The notes: generated by a model not told the origin, from the sequence alone. A stretch of DNA of 5,019 nt from a virus (IMGVR_UViG_2695420600_000010); one strand, 5' to 3'. Shown: positions 1 to 5,019, counted from the stretch's first letter. Program-made: numbers and translations.

Positions 1-1
1 G

Positions 2-658
2 CAAAAGTGTAGCGGTATTAAGCGCAGCTATTTAGCTATTGGAGCTACTGATAACGCACTGGGTGAAAACTCCATTGTTCTGGGAGATAACGACACCGGA
101 TTTAGGCAAGATGGAGATGGTATTATTAGCTTCTATTCAAATGGTTCGCGCATCGGACATATTGATGAGTTAGGATTACATCTTTATAAAGATATTGAAT
201 CTAATGGCAGCAATTTTAGATTAAAAAGTAATTACCGCCACCACATTACATTCGCCAACGAAGACGGAAGAATTCGTATGTTTTTGTGGAAAGATAACGG
301 TGGTGATGGTGTTCATATTAATAACGGTTCAGATGGTGGTGGTGATTTCATTTTTAAAACAGATGGGGGATTTGCGCTGGGAAGTGGTGCGCAAGTTGCG
401 TCTAGTGGCGATATTTATGGTTCAGTGTGGGAAAACAACTGGTTAAGCACATGGCTGCATAATCATGTCGTTCGGGATATTCGTCTTGGCAGCATTGAAT
501 ATAAAAACGTATGGCGCGACTACGGCTTTGGCGATGCGTCAGGTTATGTTTTAACAGCCGCAATTAACAGCAATGCGGATGATATTGTCGACACTGTTGC
601 CAGAAGGCCAATTCAGAAATTGATTGGGGGAATATGGTACAACGTGGGGAGTGTTTAA
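2..658 (+). CDS. stf: Phage side tail fibre protein, C-terminal (variable) cassette; 5' end lies upstream of the window
   Basis: Frame 2 is open from position 2 to TAA at 656-658 (the ORF track reports only the Met-initiated part, 278..658). The translation contains ...[14 protein letters not shown]... and ends ...[18 protein letters not shown], paralogous to the minus-strand cassette ([16 protein letters not shown] ... [17 protein letters not shown]). Gly/Asn/Ser-rich composition typical of enterobacterial phage tail-fibre tips; the stop is 1 nt before the tfa start. Confidence 0.8.
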
Positions 659-659
659 G

Positions 660-1187
660 ATGATGCACCTGAAAAATATTAAGGCCGGGAATCCGAAAAC
701 ACCGGAACAATACCAGCTAACTAAAAAAGCGGGCGTGGTATGGCTCTTTTGCGAAGATGGCAAAAACTGGTATGAGGAACAAAAGAATTTTCAGCCAGAC
801 ACCATAAAAATTGCTTACGATGAGAACAACATCATCGTTGCTGTCAGTAAAGACGTTTCAACTATTAATCCTGAAGGGCTAAGCATAGTTGAAGTTCCTG
901 ATATTACGGCAAATCGTCACGCAGACAATAACGGAAAATGGATGTTTCTGGATGGTAAAGTAGTAAAGAGGGAATATACAGAACAGGAACTGCAACAACA
1001 GGCCGAATCACAAAAGGCCGCATTGCTTTCCGAAGCTGAATCAGTCATCCAGCCGCTGGAACGCGCTGTCAGGCTGAATATGGCAACAGACGAGGAACGC
1101 ACACGACTGGAAGCATGGGAACGCTACAGTGTTCTGGTCAGCCGTGTGGATACGGCAAATCCTGAATGGCCACAAAAGCCTGAATAA
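660..1187 (+). CDS. tfa: Tail fibre assembly protein (Tfa chaperone)
   Basis: ORF track 624..1187. Preferred start is ATG ATG at 660/663, preceded by GGGGAG (645-650), because the product then begins [22 protein letters not shown], aligning with the start of the paralogous minus-strand Tfa' ([22 protein letters not shown]). C-terminus ...[20 protein letters not shown] is the conserved Tfa tail also seen in the three tfa remnants downstream. Confidence 0.85.
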
Positions 1188-1192
1188 AAATT

Positions 1193-1212
1193 AAGGCCCG
1201 ATAGCGGGCCTT
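1193..1212. terminator. Candidate bidirectional intrinsic terminator between the convergent tfa genes
   Basis: Perfect 8-bp inverted repeat aaggcccg (1193-1200) / cgggcctt (1205-1212) with a 4-nt loop; A-run 1186-1190 on one side (a U-tract for the minus-strand transcript) and a T/C-rich run on the other. Sits between the stop of tfa (1187) and the stop of tfa' (1216). Confidence 0.45.
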
Positions 1213-1215
1213 CTC

Positions 1216-1749
1216 TCATTCTGGTTGTTCGGGAAACGTTACTGGCAGGCTGGAGGTGTCTGTGGATTCAACCTTCTGCGCATAGAGCATCCACTCGGTT
1301 AATTTTTGTTTATTCTCATCGGAAATGATGCCCAGCTGTAGCTGAGAGTCCCACAGCTGGGTTTTATCCCTGACGAGCTGCAGCAGGCTCTGCTTTTCAT
1401 TTTCCGCTTGTTGCCTTTGCTCTTCCTCGGTATAAGTTCGCTTTATCACCGCACCATCTTTGAACATCCAGTTGCCCGAAATATCAGCCCGGCGATTTGC
1501 TGTAATATCAGGCAACTCAACGACACTTAAACCTTCTGGATTAATTGCTGATACATCCTTGTCTATAGCAATAATTATTCCCTCAACTGTGTAAGCCAGT
1601 TTTATTGTATCCTCCTGAAAGTTTTTTAATTCCTCATGCCAATTTTTTCCATCTTCGGACCATAACCAGATAACATCAAAATTCTTTGTTAGCTGGTATT
1701 GTTCAACGGTTTTTGGATTACCTGCGACAATGTTTTTTAAATGCTGCAT
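1216..1749 (-). CDS. tfa: Tail fibre assembly protein, alternative (inverted-orientation) copy
   Basis: 177-aa ORF on the minus strand, [40 protein letters not shown]..., collinear paralogue of the plus-strand Tfa (shared N-terminus, ...[16 protein letters not shown]..., acidic/Gln-rich C-terminal part). Start ATG at 1747-1749 lies 2 nt after the stop of the stf' reading frame. Confidence 0.85.
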
Positions 1750-1751
1750 GA

Positions 1752-1898
1752 TTATACCTGCGATACGTTATACCATGTTCCGTTAATTAACTTTTGTATT
1801 GGTCTGAATACTGCCGGATCATCACCATCGACTTCACCGATAATACCAAGCCCCGTGATTACATGGCCTGATTTTTCATACATCACGCCTTTCTTCAT
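1752..1898 (-). CDS. C-terminal segment of the silent stf' cassette, separated from the main stf' frame by an in-frame TAG
   Basis: Same frame as the 1902..2513 ORF. Translation [48 protein letters not shown] ends with the same motif as the plus-strand Stf C-terminus ([18 protein letters not shown]). Not in the ORF track, presumably because it is short. Confidence 0.6.
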
Positions 1899-1901
1899 GG
1901 T

Positions 1902-2678
1902 CTAAACAACTCGTGTGCCAAGTCTGACATCTCTCACATAGCGGGAATCAAAGTTACCGTAATCCGAGGGATTAACACGTCCCGTAATATTTATGGTTTT
2001 ATTACTTTGAATGCTTCCGGAGACAAAGCGCATAACATGGACGTTATTAGCATAAACATCCAGATTACCATCGCCTTTTTGTTTAAAGCCCGTGTCATTA
2101 TCACCCAATACAATCGAATTACCGCCAAGAGCACTGGATGTTCCGATACCCAGTGCACCATTCAGTTGACCACCAGATAACGGCAGTGCACCAACATCTC
2201 CTGCTGAAGGTTTTCTGGTGGTGTAAAATTCGGACCAGTCGGCTTCAAAACCATAACCATCACGGGCTGAACGATAAAAAATACCGCCATTTTTATAATT
2301 AATCCGAAACTGAGCTGCAGGACAACTTCCTTCTCCCATATAAAAATGAATAATTAACGTTGATGCACCACTAATAGTTGCGTTATAGGCTCCGCTACTC
2401 CAGTTCCATCCAACTGCTTTATCATTCGCAACGGTGCTTCCTGTTTTCCCTAAGGCAAACGCACCAACATGACTTGCTTTTAATGTGATATCGGAGGAAC
2501 CATCAAAAGCCACATTGCTTATTTTCCTGGCAGTTTTTAATTTTGCAGCTGTAGAAGCATTGCCGGATAGTTCACCAGAAAGGCCACCGCTGAATGTTTG
2601 TCGATTAGTCCAGGTATTCGCTGTACTGAGTAACGGTATTTTCTCCCCGCTTGTGCCGAGTTCTCGTAAACCGAGGTT
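1902..2678 (-). CDS. stf: Silent alternative tail-fibre C-terminal cassette (stf'), no start codon of its own
   Basis: The minus-strand frame is open from the crossover site (a TAA at 2679-2681 on the minus strand closes it inside the site) to TAG at 1902-1904; the ORF track shows only the GTG-initiated part 1902..2513. Translation ...[28 protein letters not shown]...RYVRDVRLG is paralogous to the plus-strand Stf. The arrangement is that of the unexpressed S'v cassette of Mu G / P1 C / e14 P segments. Confidence 0.75.
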   Translation of the reverse strand, partial: NLGLRELGTSGEKIPLLSTANTWTNRQTFSGGLSGELSGNASTAAKLKTARKISNVAFDGSSDITLKASHVGAFALGKTGSTVANDKAVGWNWSSGAYNATISGASTLIIHFYMGEGSCPAAQFRINYKNGGIFYRSARDGYGFEADWSEFYTTRKPSAGDVGALPLSGGQLNGALGIGTSSALGGNSIVLGDNDTGFKQKGDGNLDVYANNVHVMRFVSGSIQSNKTINITGRVNPSDYGNFDSRYVRDVRLGTRVV

Positions 2679-2686
2679 TTAGATAA
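2661..2686. other. Crossover site for a Gin/Pin/Hin/Cin-family serine DNA invertase (gix/hix-like), right boundary of the invertible segment
   Basis: Sequence ttctcgtaaacc-ga-ggttttagataa is two imperfectly inverted 12-bp half-sites around a 2-bp core. It closely matches my recollection of gix (TTCCTGTAAACCGAGGTTTTGGATAA) and hixL (TTCTTGAAAACCAAGGTTTTTGATAA). It lies about 55 bp upstream of the invertase start and exactly where the silent stf' frame opens. Confidence 0.75.
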
Positions 2687-2740
2687 TGGCGGTTTCTGGC
2701 CTGCATGGCATGATTTGTGCTTTTGGACGGGAGATTCAGC

Positions 2741-2974
2741 GTGCTGATTGGCTATGTAAGGGTATCAACAAATGACCAGAATACAGACCTGCAACGAAAC
2801 GCTCTTGTTTGTGCAGGATATGAACAAATATTTGAAGATAAATTAAGCGGAACAAGGACAGGCCGACCTGGATTAAAACGTGCTTTAAAGCGCCTTCAAA
2901 AAGGTGACGCACTGGTTGTCTGAAAACTGGACTGACTGGGTCACTGTATGCGGCATCTTGTCGTGCTGGTGGTG
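2741..2974 (+). pseudogene. pin: Serine DNA invertase (Pin/Gin family), N-terminal catalytic region only; inactivated by two in-frame TGA codons and 3' truncation
   Basis: GTG start at 2741 preceded by GGGAGA (2729-2734). Translation MLIGYVRVSTNDQNTDLQRNALVCAGYEQIFEDKLSGTRTGRPGLKRALKRLQKGDALVV*KLD*LGHCMRHLVVLVVE is near-collinear with the Gin/Pin N-terminus as I recall it (MLIGYVRVSTNDQNTDLQRNALVCAGCEQIFEDKLSGTRTDRPGLKRALKRLQKGDTLVVWKLDRLGRSMKHLISLVGELRE). TGA at 2921-2923 replaces the Trp codon and TGA at 2933-2935 replaces the Arg codon. Invertase homology ends near 2974, where tfa homology begins. The ORF track entry 2717..2923 is this gene with an upstream GTG. Confidence 0.85.
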
Positions 2975-3087
2975 GAAGCCTAGAAAAAGTATCGGGTGTT
3001 GCTGAACCGTGTTGATACATCAACTGCACCTGATATTGAGTGGCCTACGAACCCTGTCAGGGAGTAATCATTGGGATTATGCCGCAG
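2974..3087 (+). repeat. tfa 3'-end remnant, copy A (last ~24 codons of a Tfa plus ~40 bp downstream), fused in frame to the invertase pseudogene
   Basis: 2974-3046 matches 4023-4095 (copy B) with 2 mismatches (59 bp identical at 2988-3046 / 4036-4094). 2989-3087 matches 4874-4972 (copy C) with about 6 mismatches. Encodes ...(A)[27 protein letters not shown], i.e. a Tfa C-terminus. Confidence 0.7.
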
Positions 3088-3115
3088 CACGTCTTAAGCA
3101 AGAACGTGCTGCGGT
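3081..3115. terminator. Stable hairpin at the left border of the methyltransferase cassette; weak terminator candidate
   Basis: 11-bp perfect inverted repeat ccgcagcacgt (3082-3092) / acgtgctgcgg (3104-3114) with an 11-nt loop cttaagcaaga. On the plus strand a T-run (3124-3130) follows only after an 8-9 nt spacer; on the minus strand it lies 8 nt past the methyltransferase stop but has no U-tract. Function is therefore uncertain. Confidence 0.3.
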
Positions 3116-3121
3116 TGGATG

Positions 3122-3790
3122 CTATTTTTTCCCTGAAGCGGAAAACATTACTACAGTACCTTGAACCTTGGTTTTAACATTCTCGAAATGCTCTGAGAGT
3201 ATATGTGTTAAGCCTTCTTCGGAATCTTTTGTGTTTGAAAAGATGCCTTTCTGATTGTAAATGCGCATCAGTTTTTGACCGAAGCTATTGTGCACAACTC
3301 CATCGCCAAGAATTGTGGCTCCGTATAGAGTTCCATCATCAGTTAAGGCCTGCGCCGCATTGCGTATTACACAGCTTTTTGTAGATATATTTCCAGGCAG
3401 GCAGTGAAGAAGGTAAAACATGGAAATGGAATCAAATTGACCATGTAACGCCGCGGGATAAGGTTCAAAAACATCATGGCTAATTTTATGTTTAATTTTT
3501 GATTCCCCAGCCCTTGTAGATGCCGCGTTCAGGCTAGCTTCGTTCAAATCCATTAAAGATATCAGACTACTCTCAGGTACGTGAGTAAGGTAAAACCCAG
3601 TTCCAACACCAATATCCAGATGGTTGTTACCTAAATGTTCCAGAAAGTGTGGAAGAAGGTGTTCCTTTGTAGGACATCCCCATGCAAGCCGATTTGATAC
3701 TCCCAAAACCCACCAGTCATAAAGCTTTAGGGTAAGTGGTGTGTAAATTTTAGCCCCATCATCTGTGTTTGTTTTCATTGATTTCACCAT
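3122..3790 (-). CDS. Class I (Rossmann-fold) SAM-dependent methyltransferase, substrate unknown
   Basis: 222-aa ORF. Contains the glycine-rich SAM-binding motif I (HLDIGVGTGFY), an acidic residue one beta-strand later (SLMDLNEASL), and further Rossmann-type motifs (FDSISMFYLLHC, DDGTLYGATI). I find no (D/N/S)PP(Y/F/W) or PCQ motif, so an N6/N4/C5 DNA methyltransferase is unlikely. An alternative start is the ATG at 3776-3778 (MKTNTDDG...), which has a GGTGA Shine-Dalgarno 5 nt upstream; the first ATG (3788-3790) has none. Confidence 0.8.
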   Translation of the reverse strand: MVKSMKTNTDDGAKIYTPLTLKLYDWWVLGVSNRLAWGCPTKEHLLPHFLEHLGNNHLDIGVGTGFYLTHVPESSLISLMDLNEASLNAASTRAGESKIKHKISHDVFEPYPAALHGQFDSISMFYLLHCLPGNISTKSCVIRNAAQALTDDGTLYGATILGDGVVHNSFGQKLMRIYNQKGIFSNTKDSEEGLTHILSEHFENVKTKVQGTVVMFSASGKK

Positions 3791-3847
3791 GTTATAGTTT
3801 TATTTGTGAATTAAATCAATTATGGCGATGAATTACAAGGGGTTAAA
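3791..3847 (-). promoter_or_regulatory. Candidate sigma70-type promoter(s) for the methyltransferase gene
   Basis: On the minus strand: TTTAAC (plus 3842-3847), 17-bp spacer, CATAAT (plus 3819-3824), about 35 nt upstream of the ATG; or TTGATT (3814-3819), 17 bp, TATAAC (3791-3796), abutting the first ATG. Hexamer matching by eye only. Confidence 0.25.
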
Positions 3848-3882
3848 TGCTGCCGCAGCATAGCGATATTGAAATAGCCTAG

Positions 3883-4116
3883 TATGCTTCGATACAGCAG
3901 GAGCCGAATGGCTGGAAGACCGTCACCACACAGTTCTACATCCAGGAATTCAGTGAGCATATTGCGCCACTTCAGGATGCTGTAGATCTGGAGATCGCAA
4001 CGGAGGAAGAAAACTCGTTGCTGGAAGCCTGGAAGAAGTATCGGGTGTTGCTGAACCGTGTTGATACATCAACTGCACCTGATATTGAGTGGCCGGAAGA
4101 ACCAGACACAATGTAA
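3883..4116 (+). pseudogene. tfa: Tail fibre assembly protein, 3' fragment (copy B): about 77 C-terminal codons, no start or N-terminal half
   Basis: Frame 1 after TAG at 3880-3882 translates [77 protein letters not shown]. This is collinear with the C-terminus of the intact plus-strand Tfa (...[42 protein letters not shown]...). Too short and start-less to appear in the ORF track. Confidence 0.75.
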
Positions 4117-4242
4117 GGCAGTATGACTTTCCGTGAGACAGATGCTGGCCAACGTGGGATATTTAACGCGGGTTAACATCGTTGTCAGAGCCGCATGGGT
4201 GAGCTGTTGCTACACCCCGGTATTTCCACCACGGAGGCCAGC

Positions 4243-4832
4243 ATGAACAACAATAACACATTGTACGTCGGGTTAGATGTTCACAAAGAATCGATTACTG
4301 TCGCTTATGCTATCAATTCAGAACCTGTTGAACTGATGGGTAAAATTGGCACATCACCTACTGATATTCAGAATCTTTGTAAACGTCTCAGGTCAAAGTC
4401 ATCGCAGGTCAGTATCGTTTATGAAGCGGGGCCCTGTGGTTATGGACTTTATCGTCGGCTGGTGAAATCCGGTTTTGACTGCATGGTCTGCGCCCCCTCA
4501 CTTATCCCGAAAAAACCGGGGGAGCGGGTTAAAACCGATCGCCGTGATGCCATCAGACTTGTGCGTTCACTGCGTGCAGGAGATCTTTCTGCTGTCTACG
4601 TACCCGGCATTGAAGATGAGGCATTCCGGGATTTGGCCCGGGCATGGGCATCTGCCCGCGATGATTTACGGCATGCAAGGCAACGTCTGAAATCGTTTCT
4701 TCTGGTTCATGGGGTCCATTATGTCGGGCGAGCAGATTGGGGCCCTGCACACCGACGCTGGCTCAGCAAATACTCATTCGAAAGTCCCTGGCGACAATTA
4801 GCTTTTGACGAACACCGTCGTACAATAGAAGA
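4243..4832 (+). CDS. IS110-family (DEDD) transposase, N-terminal ~196 aa; 3' part lost in the scaffold gap
   Basis: ORF track 4195..4890. Preferred start ATG 4243 with GGAGG (4233-4237) 5 nt upstream. MNNNNTLYVGLDVHKESITVAYA..., ...SIVYEAGPCGYGLYRRL..., ...RVKTDRRDAIRLVRSLRAGDL... reproduce the N-terminal DEDD catalytic-domain signatures of IS110/IS1111-family transposases. The reading frame runs into the N-run at 4833. Confidence 0.85.
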
Positions 4833-4873
4833 NNNNNNNNNNNNNNNNNNNNNNNNNNNNNNNNNNNNNNNNN
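4833..4873. other. Assembly/scaffold gap (41 N)
   Basis: Uninterrupted run of n. The flanks are not continuous: IS110 transposase on the left, tfa remnant on the right. Confidence 0.95.
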
Positions 4874-4971
4874 ATATCGGGTATTGTTGAATCGTGTTGA
4901 TACATCAACTGCACCTGATATTGAGTGGCCTGCAAATCCTGTCAGGGAGTAATCATTGGGATTATGCCGCA
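4874..4971 (+). repeat. tfa 3'-end remnant, copy C, truncated on the left by the gap and on the right by IS1
   Basis: 4874-4972 aligns to 2989-3087 (copy A) with about 6 mismatches, including the downstream non-coding stretch cctgtcagggagtaatcattgggattatgccgcag. Encodes ...IGYC*-frame Tfa tail ...[19 protein letters not shown]. Confidence 0.7.
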
Positions 4972-5019
4972 GGTGATGCTGCCAACTTACTGATTTAGTG
5001 TATGATGGTGTTTTTGAGG
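4972..5019 (+). mobile_element. IS1 left end (IRL and first 48 bp), continuing beyond the window
   Basis: ggtgatgctgccaacttactgatttagtgtatgatggtgtttttgagg matches the IS1 left terminus as I recall it (GGTGATGCTGCCAACTTACTGAT... IRL followed by the insA leader). The element runs off the window, so insA/insB and any target duplication are not visible. Confidence 0.9.

What the first reader, a model, noticed from the sequence alone, without database searches (positions are those of the whole stretch)
2741..2983. Invertase gene is a pseudogene: two in-frame TGA stops and a 3' fusion to a tfa remnant, so the switch is probably frozen
The first 60 codons are almost identical to Gin/Pin, but the codons corresponding to the conserved Trp and Arg of ...LVVWKLDRLG... 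are TGA (2921-2923 and 2933-2935), each a single transition. After about 78 codons the frame stops resembling invertase and continues as a Tfa C-terminus, so the helix-turn-helix DNA-binding domain is missing. The Fis-dependent recombinational enhancer of Gin/Hin/Cin systems lies inside the 5' part of the invertase gene, which is retained here, so the segment could still be flipped in trans by a Pin-family invertase encoded elsewhere in the genome.
Basis: partly seen in the sequence, partly recalled or inferred. Interest (0 to 1): 0.55.

Follow-up and report, generated by a model that had tools for sequence, protein, structure and literature searches.

The report
Dead invertase gene, switch still flips
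This is the broken stump of a DNA-flipping enzyme gene beside a phage tail-fibre switch in an E. coli/Shigella prophage; the switch is not frozen but is still flipped by enzymes from other prophages, which was already reported in 2014.

Summary
Window 2741-2972 is the first 77 codons of a Gin/Pin-type serine DNA invertase. It has TGA at 2921-2923 (Trp61) and at 2933-2935 (Arg65). After 2972 it is fused in frame to the last ~31 codons of a tail-fibre-assembly (tfa) gene, which carries its own TAG at 2981-2983. The rest of the catalytic domain and the DNA-binding domain are missing.

The same junction and Arg65 stop occur in all 29 IMG/VR prophage loci found and in hundreds of complete E. coli genomes, so sequencing error is excluded. 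RefSeq already annotates the gene as a pseudogene.

The headline inference, "probably frozen", is wrong.
- Near-identical loci with the identical dead gene differ by precise inversions between two 26-bp gix sites. The inner half-sites swap sides and no long inverted repeats are present.
- Among complete E. coli genomes, 143 hold one junction and 374 the other, and similarly named isolates differ.
- One locus recombined the right gix site with a quasi-site in gpJ.
- Carrier genomes hold intact Gin-like invertases elsewhere.

Forde et al. 2014 described exactly this for prophage Phi4 of E. coli EC958. Already known; low interest.

The parts
1..658 (+). 3' part of the tail-fibre gene variable region in the expressed orientation. 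It lies inside the invertible segment. The left crossover site is about 230-255 nt upstream of window position 1, outside the window.
   Evidence: In L030 (99.6% identical to window 33-4094) this reading frame is part of a 918-aa tail-fibre ORF. The left gix site sits at oriented L030 6144-6169, and window position 1 corresponds to about 6400.
660..1187 (+). Tail-fibre assembly gene (tfa) in the expressed orientation.
   Evidence: Pfam Caudo_TAP, E=8e-37; ORF list.
1216..1749 (-). Alternative tfa' gene in the silent orientation.
   Evidence: Pfam Caudo_TAP, E=5e-34; ORF list.
1752..2660 (-). Alternative tail-fibre C-terminal region (Sv') in the silent orientation. It is interrupted by a premature TAG, read on the minus strand at 1902-1904, where NCTC86 has CAG.
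   Evidence: The ORF list shows a break between 1752-1898 and 1902-2513. The NCTC86 sequence has CTG where the window has CTA on the + strand. L030 and L025 show the same truncated end.
2661..2686 (+). Right 26-bp crossover (gix-type) site, TTCTCGTAAACC-GA-GGTTTTAGATAA, with the central dinucleotide at 2673-2674.
   Evidence: Identical to the Phi4_3prime site of EC958 in Forde et al. 2014, Table 3. It aligns with the Mu gix site. The half-sites exchange between flipped and unflipped relatives.
2741..2972 (+). DNA invertase pseudogene remnant: GTG start, 77 codons plus 1 nt. The catalytic Ser9 codon is present. The rest of the catalytic domain, the E-helix and the HTH domain are absent.
   Evidence: PGAP annotates it as 'recombinase family protein, incomplete, missing C-terminus' in NCTC86 and EC958.
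2755..2830 (.). Region homologous to the Fis-dependent recombinational enhancer inside Mu gin. Candidate 15-bp Fis cores are GTATCAACAAATGAC (2762-2776) and GTGCAGGATATGAAC (2811-2825). The first core is centred about 96 bp from the gix centre.
   Evidence: Only one difference from Mu gin across 2741-2860 (2820, G to A). In Hin the distance from hixL to the proximal Fis site is about 100 bp (PMC3798978). Fis binding was not tested here; the site calls are by eye from the sequence.
2921..2923 (+). TGA replacing Trp61 (TGG).
   Evidence: The codon is TGG in 12 of 30 related loci and TGA in 18.
2933..2935 (+). TGA replacing Arg65, present in every related locus found.
2973..3067 (+). 3' remnant of a tfa gene (last ~31 codons), fused in frame to the invertase stump. 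It has an internal TAG at 2981-2983 (Trp in 13 of 30 loci) and its natural TAA at 3065-3067.
   Evidence: Caudo_TAP profile positions 104-130 of 131. It forms direct-repeat family D1 with copies at 4039-4136 and 4875-4972.

Best explanation
The window holds the right-hand end of a Gin/Pin-type invertible tail-fibre segment in a lambdoid prophage of the EC958 'Phi4' type. In the two complete genomes whose flanks I read, it sits beside the ompW remnant and the trp operon.

The segment's own invertase gene is dead. An illegitimate join after codon 77 replaced everything downstream with the 3' end of a tfa gene. An Arg65 nonsense codon is equally widespread, and Trp61-to-TGA and the tfa TAG arose later.

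What survives are the cis-acting parts: both 26-bp crossover sites and the first ~230 nt of the gene. In Mu gin that 5' stretch contains the Fis-dependent enhancer.

The segment therefore behaves as a non-autonomous switch. Intact Gin-like invertases encoded by co-resident P2/P88-like or Mu-like prophages bind its gix sites and invert it. Inversion exchanges the tail-fibre C-terminus and tfa pair that is fused to the constant part of the tail-fibre gene.

Shown here: the lesions; their presence in every related locus examined; precise gix-to-gix inversions among carriers; and intact invertases in carrier genomes. Inferred: which enzyme does the flipping, the dependence on Fis and the enhancer, and that the window's own genome also flips. 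One relative of the window's type (L025) is flipped.
For: Lesions.

Precise inversions:
- L025 against L030 (99.4-99.8% identical): a 2950-nt block is inverted, with only a 25-nt overlap at each gix site. The L030 self-comparison shows no inverted repeat of 100 nt or more.
- The inner half-sites TTCCTG and TTCTCG swap sides, while the outer halves GGTATTCGATAA (left) and GGTTTTAGATAA (right) stay in place.
- A second, independent case in the ST131-type allele: L016 and L031 against L017 and L034, a 3119-nt precise inversion.

Census in complete genomes: the flipped junction is found in 143 genomes and the unflipped junction in 374. Similarly named isolates differ: 4/0 against 4/1-1 and 4/4, U12A against U14A, p11A against p11B, and 2019_APHA against 2017_APHA.

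Quasi-site event: L010 is a reciprocal recombinant between the right gix site and the quasi-site TAACGAGAACTG-TC-GGGTTCTGGGAA inside gpJ. That site is intact in L001, L006, L013 and L026.

Candidate trans enzymes:
- An intact 199-aa invertase in EC958 Phi1.
- An intact Gin-like invertase (about 195 aa) with a matching gix site on the L025 scaffold.
- Listed carrier chromosomes mostly hold 2-5 invertase-like places; one chromosome (E138) holds only one.

Literature: Forde et al. 2014 saw both orientations of this segment in PacBio reads of one EC958 culture. They noted the truncated invertase and proposed trans action by the Phi1 enzyme. A 2026 ST131 preprint reports within-isolate inversions in a lambdoid prophage for which it lists no invertase.
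Against: - No reads or second assembly exist for the window's own genome, so its own switching is inferred from relatives.
- L025, the only flipped relative of the window's exact type, is a scaffold of three contigs. The inversion does lie inside the middle contig, with about 1 kb of flank on each side.
- The identity of the trans-acting enzyme and the role of the enhancer were not tested.
- In NCTC86-type loci the two arms are 781 nt long and 99% identical. There, RecA-dependent inversion cannot be excluded.
- In the window's lineage one of the two alternative tail-fibre ends carries a premature stop, so flipping may have no phenotypic consequence.
Confidence: 0.9

Rival explanations
1. Frozen switch. 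With its invertase dead, the segment is locked in one orientation and is simply decaying.
For: The invertase is unquestionably non-functional. One alternative tail-fibre end in the window also has a premature stop. Other parts of the prophage are pseudogenised in relatives.
Against: Both orientations are found among loci with identical lesions, with breakpoints exactly at the gix sites. Complete genomes split 143 to 374. Both orientations were present within one EC958 culture.
Confidence: 0.05
2. The inversions are real but are made by general (RecA) homologous recombination between inverted repeats, not by a site-specific invertase.
For: NCTC86-type loci have 781-nt arms that are 99% identical. 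Arms of that length could support RecA-mediated inversion.
Against: In the window-type and ST131-type loci, the only inverted homology is the 26-bp site, with a 12-nt exact core, and self-comparisons show no longer inverted repeat. The exchange point falls between the two half-sites. The L010 event used a quasi-site in which 8 of 12 positions of one half-site match the gix consensus (my own comparison) and which has the same central TC. That is typical of Cin/Gin quasi-site use and far too little homology for RecA.
Confidence: 0.04
3. The stops are sequencing or assembly errors and the gene is really intact.
For: None beyond the general possibility. The window does contain an N gap elsewhere (4833-4873).
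Against: The same junction and Arg65 TGA occur in 29 IMG/VR loci and in hundreds of complete genomes from different technologies. Even with the stops repaired, the gene ends in a tfa fragment.
Confidence: 0.01
4. The short N-terminal peptide (60-64 aa; annotated as protein WP_071598134.1 in some strains) has acquired a function. One example would be a dominant-negative modulator of co-resident invertases.
For: In the alleles that keep TGG at codon 61, a 64-codon ORF is retained and PGAP calls it a protein.
Against: It lacks most of the catalytic domain, the dimerisation E-helix and the DNA-binding domain. The window's allele shortens it further to 60 aa. Amino-acid changes and nonsense mutations accumulate, as expected for neutral decay.
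Confidence: 0.03

Closest known systems
Prophage Phi4 of E. coli O25b:H4-ST131 EC958 (Forde et al. 2014, PLoS One 9:e104400)
   Same: It is the same locus type. The 26-bp crossover sites are identical (TTATCGAATACCTCGGTTTACAGGAA and TTATCTAAAACCTCGGTTTACGAGAA). The truncated invertase is the same, 99.1% identical over 2741-2972, and is followed by the same tfa remnant and SAM-methyltransferase. Inversion in trans was proposed there.
   Different: The window's segment interior is a different allele set; only 1918-4094 matches ST131 at about 98%. It has Gly rather than Val at residue 67, a premature stop in Sv', and an ISSso6 insertion downstream. The host is probably a Shigella or EIEC-like strain rather than ST131; that is an inference from the IS.
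Phage Mu G segment with gin
   Same: Same architecture: constant tail-fibre part, gix, Sv-U and U'-Sv', gix, then the invertase. Nt 1-180 of the gene are 97.2% identical to gin, and the gix site differs at 3 of 26 positions. By established knowledge, the Mu enhancer lies inside the 5' part of gin (Kahmann et al. 1985, Cell 41:771).
   Different: Here the invertase is truncated at codon 77 and carries nonsense codons. The host element is a lambdoid prophage, not Mu. Nt 206-232 are pinE-like rather than gin-like.
e14 P segment with pinE of E. coli K-12, and cross-complementation among Gin, Cin, Pin and Hin
   Same: Same enzyme family and site type. The last 27 nt of the stump are identical to pinE. 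By established knowledge, Pin complements gin mutants and the four invertases substitute for one another (Plasterk et al. 1983; Kutsukake and Iino 1980). That is the precedent for trans flipping.
   Different: pinE is intact, and it is only 69% identical to the window over nt 1-180.
Quasi-site recombination by Cin of phage P1 (Iida and Hiestand-Nauer 1987, cited)
   Same: The L010 rearrangement joins the right gix site to a weakly matching site with the same central dinucleotide.
   Different: It was seen here in a natural isolate's prophage, inside gpJ, and in a locus that has no invertase of its own.

Membership tests
Gin/Pin/Cin/Hin DNA invertases (small serine recombinases), as a functional enzyme | N-terminal resolvase-type catalytic domain with the active-site serine (Ser9 in Gin) | tested here: inconclusive
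   The Ser9 codon and profile positions 2-91 of 145 are present (Pfam PF00239, E=7e-22). The domain is cut at residue 77 and interrupted by two TGA codons.
Gin/Pin/Cin/Hin DNA invertases (small serine recombinases), as a functional enzyme | Complete open reading frame of about 180-200 aa including the E-helix | tested here: not met
   Stops at codons 61 and 65, and invertase homology ends after codon 77.
Gin/Pin/Cin/Hin DNA invertases (small serine recombinases), as a functional enzyme | C-terminal helix-turn-helix DNA-binding domain | tested here: not met
   It is replaced by a tfa C-terminus (Caudo_TAP profile 104-130 of 131). No HTH-coding sequence follows downstream.
Gin-type invertible tail-fibre segment (the switch as a DNA element) | Two 26-bp crossover sites in inverted orientation flanking the alternative Sv/tfa gene pairs | tested here: met
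   The right site is at 2661-2686 in the window. The left site lies outside the window but is present in the near-identical L030 and L022. The mirrored tfa pair is at 660-1187 (+) and 1216-1749 (-).
Gin-type invertible tail-fibre segment (the switch as a DNA element) | Recombinational enhancer with two Fis sites in cis, about 100 bp from one crossover site | tested here: inconclusive
   The sequence is 119/120 identical to the Mu gin 5' region, and a candidate proximal Fis core is centred about 96 bp from the gix centre. Fis binding and enhancer activity cannot be tested with these tools.
Gin-type invertible tail-fibre segment (the switch as a DNA element) | The segment is actually found in both orientations, with exchange at the centre of the sites | tested here: met
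   the PacBio evidence in Forde et al. 2014. For the window's own strain: not testable with these tools.
Gin-type invertible tail-fibre segment (the switch as a DNA element) | A cognate invertase encoded next to the segment | tested here: not met
   Only the pseudogene is present. Intact family members are encoded elsewhere in carrier genomes.

The most novel reading that the evidence does not exclude
The 5' stump of the dead invertase gene may be kept by selection rather than by chance, because it carries the Fis enhancer that the segment needs in cis. The locus would then be a stable 'client' switch that relies on invertases of co-resident prophages, much as a non-autonomous transposon relies on a transposase from elsewhere. 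Its orientation, and occasional quasi-site rearrangements such as the gpJ inversion in L010, would depend on which other prophages the strain carries.

The evidence does not exclude this. Every locus found keeps gix plus the first 232 nt, and the first 120 nt differ from Mu gin at one base. However, the density of variable sites among the 30 loci is not clearly lower in the enhancer part (5 variable sites in 100 nt) than in the rest of the stump (14 in 132 nt).
Probability: 0.3. Interest if true: 0.4.

Novelty: already known. Interest (0 to 1): 0.15.

Why it matters
It matters mostly as a caution for annotation and interpretation. A pseudogenised recombinase next to an invertible segment does not mean the switch is locked, because Pin-family invertases act in trans on any compatible gix site in the cell.

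For this locus type the point was already made for E. coli EC958 Phi4 in 2014, and RefSeq annotates the pseudogene. What this analysis adds:
- A census showing that both orientations are common among complete genomes.
- Half-site bookkeeping showing that the exchange is site-specific.
- An order of events for the lesions.
- One natural quasi-site inversion that disrupts gpJ.

The biological payoff is limited. The prophage is partly decayed, and in the window's lineage one of the two alternative tail-fibre ends is itself truncated.

Tried and rejected
1. An exact scan of genome contigs (GTDB species representatives) for the invertase::tfa junction found nothing. The window's source genome was therefore not identified. 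The same pattern in viral contigs gave 29 loci.

2. I searched for an intact progenitor that would reveal the ancestral Arg65 codon.
- tblastn of the repaired stump against phages found nothing closer than Mu, D108 and SfMu Gin at 88.6%.
- A chimeric query (stump plus pinE continuation) against complete E. coli genomes returned only pinE itself.
- The 'single transition' claim for Arg65 therefore stays unverified.

3. My first flipped-junction query was built from NCTC86. It found no true flips, because the NCTC86-specific interior is absent from ST131 genomes, and its >=80% hits were just the left side of the same locus. I replaced it with junction queries from L016 and L017.

4. A literature search for explicit coordinates of the gin enhancer was unproductive. 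I rely on near-identity to Mu gin and on established knowledge.

5. I considered stop-codon readthrough or recoding and rejected it, because the gene lacks its 3' two-thirds regardless.

6. I treated the 26-nt inverted repeat at 2944-2969 and 3507-3532 (73% complementary) as a chance match.

7. I did not use structure prediction, Rfam or the large protein searches. They would not bear on the question.

Full report
**1. What is in the window**

The window is the distal end of a lambdoid prophage tail-fibre module. Its layout is:

| Coordinates | Strand | Feature |
|---|---|---|
| ..658 | + | 3' part of a tail-fibre gene |
| 660-1187 | + | tfa gene |
| 1216-1749 | - | mirror-image tfa' |
| 1752-2660 | - | alternative tail-fibre C-terminus (Sv') |
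| 2661-2686 | + | 26-bp Gin-type crossover site TTCTCGTAAACC-GA-GGTTTTAGATAA |
| 2741-2972 | + | invertase remnant |
| 2973-3067 | + | tfa 3' remnant |
| 3122-3790 | - | class I SAM-methyltransferase |
| ending at 4116 | + | second tfa remnant |
| 4243 onward | + | IS110-family transposase gene, running into an N gap at 4833-4873 |
| from 4874 | + | third tfa remnant |

Complete E. coli genomes carry the same right-hand part. In the two whose flanks I read, NCTC86 and 504239, it lies next to an ompW remnant and the trp operon. RefSeq there annotates a 'recombinase family protein, incomplete, missing C-terminus' followed by a 'tail fiber assembly protein, missing N-terminus'.

**2. Check of the observation**

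- Frame 1 from 2741 reads through 60 Gin-like codons to TGA at 2921-2923 (Trp61), then TGA at 2933-2935 (Arg65), then LGHCMRHLVVLV. After 2972 it continues as (V)[29 protein letters not shown].
- Repaired, residues 1-79 are 88.6% identical to Mu Gin (E=1e-39).
- Pfam splits the repaired fusion cleanly into a Resolvase N-terminal domain (profile 2-91 of 145) and the last 27 positions of Caudo_TAP.
- The stump is a mosaic. Nt 1-180 are 97.2% identical to Mu gin but 69% to pinE. Nt 206-232 are 100% identical to pinE and about 52% to gin. Nt 181-205, which hold the Arg65 stop, are 64% identical to every reference.
- The join to tfa lies between 2972 and 2973, with at most 3 nt of microhomology, and happens to be in frame.
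- The third stop, TAG at 2981-2983, is a Trp codon of the tfa part.

**3. Age and order of the lesions**

An exact scan of IMG/VR for the junction returned 29 loci. With NCTC86, strain 504239 and the window that makes 32 loci holding the junction.
- In all 31 where the 5' part is present, codon 65 is TGA. The junction and the Arg65 stop are therefore the oldest lesions.
- Trp61-to-TGA is linked to a C27Y change and is present in 18 of 30 loci that could be aligned.
- The tfa TAG is present in 17 of 30. One locus, L021, has the Trp61 stop but not the tfa TAG.
- The window carries all three stops, plus a CAG-to-TAG change in the silent Sv' (minus strand, 1902-1904).
- The three changes whose ancestral state can be read from relatives (Trp61, the tfa Trp, and Sv' CAG) are G:C-to-A:T transitions.
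- 'Single transition' is demonstrated for Trp61 only. For Arg65 the nearest intact genes use CGC or CGG, and I found no CGA-bearing progenitor.
- Sequencing error is excluded by the number of independent assemblies.

**4. Is the switch frozen? No.**

*(a) Window-type loci.* L030, L022, L011, L024 and L018 are 99.5-99.97% identical to the window over the parts they share, and in its orientation. L025 has the whole block between the two gix sites inverted:
- 2950 nt at 99.76% identity on the opposite strand.
- Flanks collinear at 99.4%.
- Only 25 nt of overlap at each end.
- No inverted repeat of 100 nt or more in a self-comparison.

The two sites differ in their inner halves (TTCCTG... against TTCTCG...) and in their outer halves (GGTATTCGATAA on the left, GGTTTTAGATAA on the right). 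In L025 the inner halves have changed sides while the outer halves have not. That is the signature of exchange at the central dinucleotide.

L025 is a scaffold with single-N joins at 1594 and 6670. The inversion lies wholly inside the middle contig.

*(b) ST131-type allele (Val67).* L016 and L031 are flipped relative to L017, L020, L026, L027 and L034. Again the inversion is precise (3119 nt) and no long repeats are present.

*(c) Complete E. coli genomes.* An 800-nt query across the flipped right junction is covered at 80% or more in 143 genomes, many at 100% identity. The unflipped junction is covered in 374. Similarly named isolates, possibly from the same studies, differ: 4/0 against 4/1-1 and 4/4, U12A against U14A, p11A against p11B, 2019_APHA against 2017_APHA, and WP3-S18-ESBL-08 against WP3-W18-ESBL-07.

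*(d) A quasi-site event.* L010 shows a 6.2-kb inversion whose two novel joints reconstruct exactly a quasi-site, TAACGAGAACTG-TC-GGGTTCTGGGAA. This site is present intact inside gpJ of L001, L006, L013 and L026. An invertase has evidently acted on this locus's right gix site and a weak secondary site.

All these loci share the same dead gene, so the flips happened after its inactivation.

**5. Who does the flipping**

- In the distant-mode search, listed carrier chromosomes mostly hold 2-5 invertase-like places. One listed chromosome, E138, has a single place.
- EC958 encodes an intact 199-aa Gin-like invertase in its P2-like prophage Phi1. Its 5' 180 nt are 95.6% identical to the stump.
- The L025 scaffold includes a P88-like contig with an intact Gin-like invertase of about 195 aa and a gix site identical to the site on the right of its flipped segment.
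- Cross-complementation among Gin, Cin, Pin and Hin is established knowledge.
- The cis requirements survive: both gix sites, and the gin 5' region. The latter differs from Mu gin at a single base (2820) across 2741-2860.
- By established knowledge (Kahmann et al. 1985; Johnson and Simon 1985) the Fis-dependent enhancer lies in that part of the gene. In Hin the proximal Fis site is about 100 bp from hixL (PMC3798978). Here a candidate core, GTATCAACAAATGAC, is centred about 96 bp from the gix centre.
- Fis dependence and the identity of the enzyme are inferred, not shown.

**6. Comparison with what is known**

This is prophage Phi4 of E. coli EC958.
- Forde et al. 2014 (PMC4134206) list its crossover sites, TTATCGAATACCTCGGTTTACAGGAA and TTATCTAAAACCTCGGTTTACGAGAA. 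These are the reverse complements of the sites found here.
- They report a 3106-bp segment found in both orientations in PacBio reads of one culture.
- The EC958 pseudogene lies immediately beside those coordinates.
- A 2026 preprint on ST131 wound isolates also reports within-isolate inversions in a lambdoid prophage for which it lists no invertase.

The finding is therefore already known, both as an annotation and as biology. As an enzyme the remnant fails the membership test for DNA invertases, because it has no complete catalytic domain and no HTH. As a DNA element the locus meets the definition of a Gin-type invertible segment, except that it lacks its own enzyme.

**7. What is specific to the window**

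- Its segment interior is not found contiguously in any complete E. coli genome of the collection; the best coverage is 52%. It does match six IMG/VR loci.
- The insertion sequence downstream is ISSso6. This suggests a Shigella sonnei or EIEC-like host, which is an inference.
- In this lineage the silent Sv' carries a premature stop, so one of the two states would make a tail fibre lacking its last ~49 residues.
- Whether the window's own strain flips cannot be decided from one assembly.

**8. Verdict**

- Observation: confirmed.
- 'Pseudogene' and 'fusion to tfa remnant': supported.
- 'Probably frozen': not supported.
- 'Could be flipped in trans': supported and previously published.
- Novelty: already known.
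- Interest: low.

Noticed in passing
L010 (IMGVR_UViG_2541047879_000004) 5555-5581 and 11798-11823; quasi-site intact at L001 5950-5975: A 6.2-kb inversion joins the right gix site of the dead-invertase locus to a quasi-site, TAACGAGAACTG-TC-GGGTTCTGGGAA, inside the tail-tip gene gpJ. This splits gpJ. Both reciprocal joints are present, and the reconstructed site exists intact in four other loci.
   Followed up: yes
window 1902-1904 (minus strand TAG): The silent alternative tail-fibre C-terminus carries a premature stop (CAG in NCTC86, TAG here and in L030 and L025). It removes the last ~49 residues, so one of the two switch states would give a truncated fibre.
   Followed up: partly
window 2741-2972: The invertase stump is a mosaic. 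Nt 1-180 are 97% identical to Mu gin, nt 206-232 are 100% identical to e14 pinE, and the 25 nt between are 64% identical to either. No intact gene with this combination was found in complete E. coli genomes or in phage records.
   Followed up: partly
window 2973-3067, 4019-4116, 4874-4972: Three copies of the last ~30 codons of a tfa gene (71-94% identical over 98 nt) bracket cargo: a SAM-methyltransferase at 3122-3790 (-) and an IS. The tfa 3' end looks like a recurrent recombination joint for cargo cassettes downstream of tail-fibre genes.
   Followed up: no
window 4120-4832, with an N run at 4833-4873: An IS110-family element, 100% identical to ISSso6 as annotated in EIEC and E. coli records, is inserted after the second tfa remnant and runs into a 41-N gap. 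L018 shares it. This hints that the window comes from a Shigella sonnei or EIEC-like genome.
   Followed up: partly
L001 (NCTC86) 9094-9874 and 11311-12091: In NCTC86-type loci the two alternative tail-fibre C-terminal regions are 99% identical over 781 nt in inverted orientation, and both inner half-sites read TTCTCG. This looks like gene conversion between the arms. The window's two arms are unrelated over the same stretch.
   Followed up: partly
window 2923, 2982 and 1904: The three nonsense changes whose ancestral state is visible in relatives (TGG to TGA, TGG to TAG, CAG to TAG) are G:C-to-A:T transitions. This fits the usual mutational bias in decaying prophage DNA.
   Followed up: no
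L025 oriented 6671-7364: After a single-N scaffold join, the same IMG scaffold continues into a P88-like (P2-family) prophage. It has its own gix site, TTCCTGTAAACCGAGGTTTTAGATAA, and an intact Gin-like invertase of about 195 aa. This is a ready candidate for the trans-acting enzyme in that genome.
   Followed up: yes
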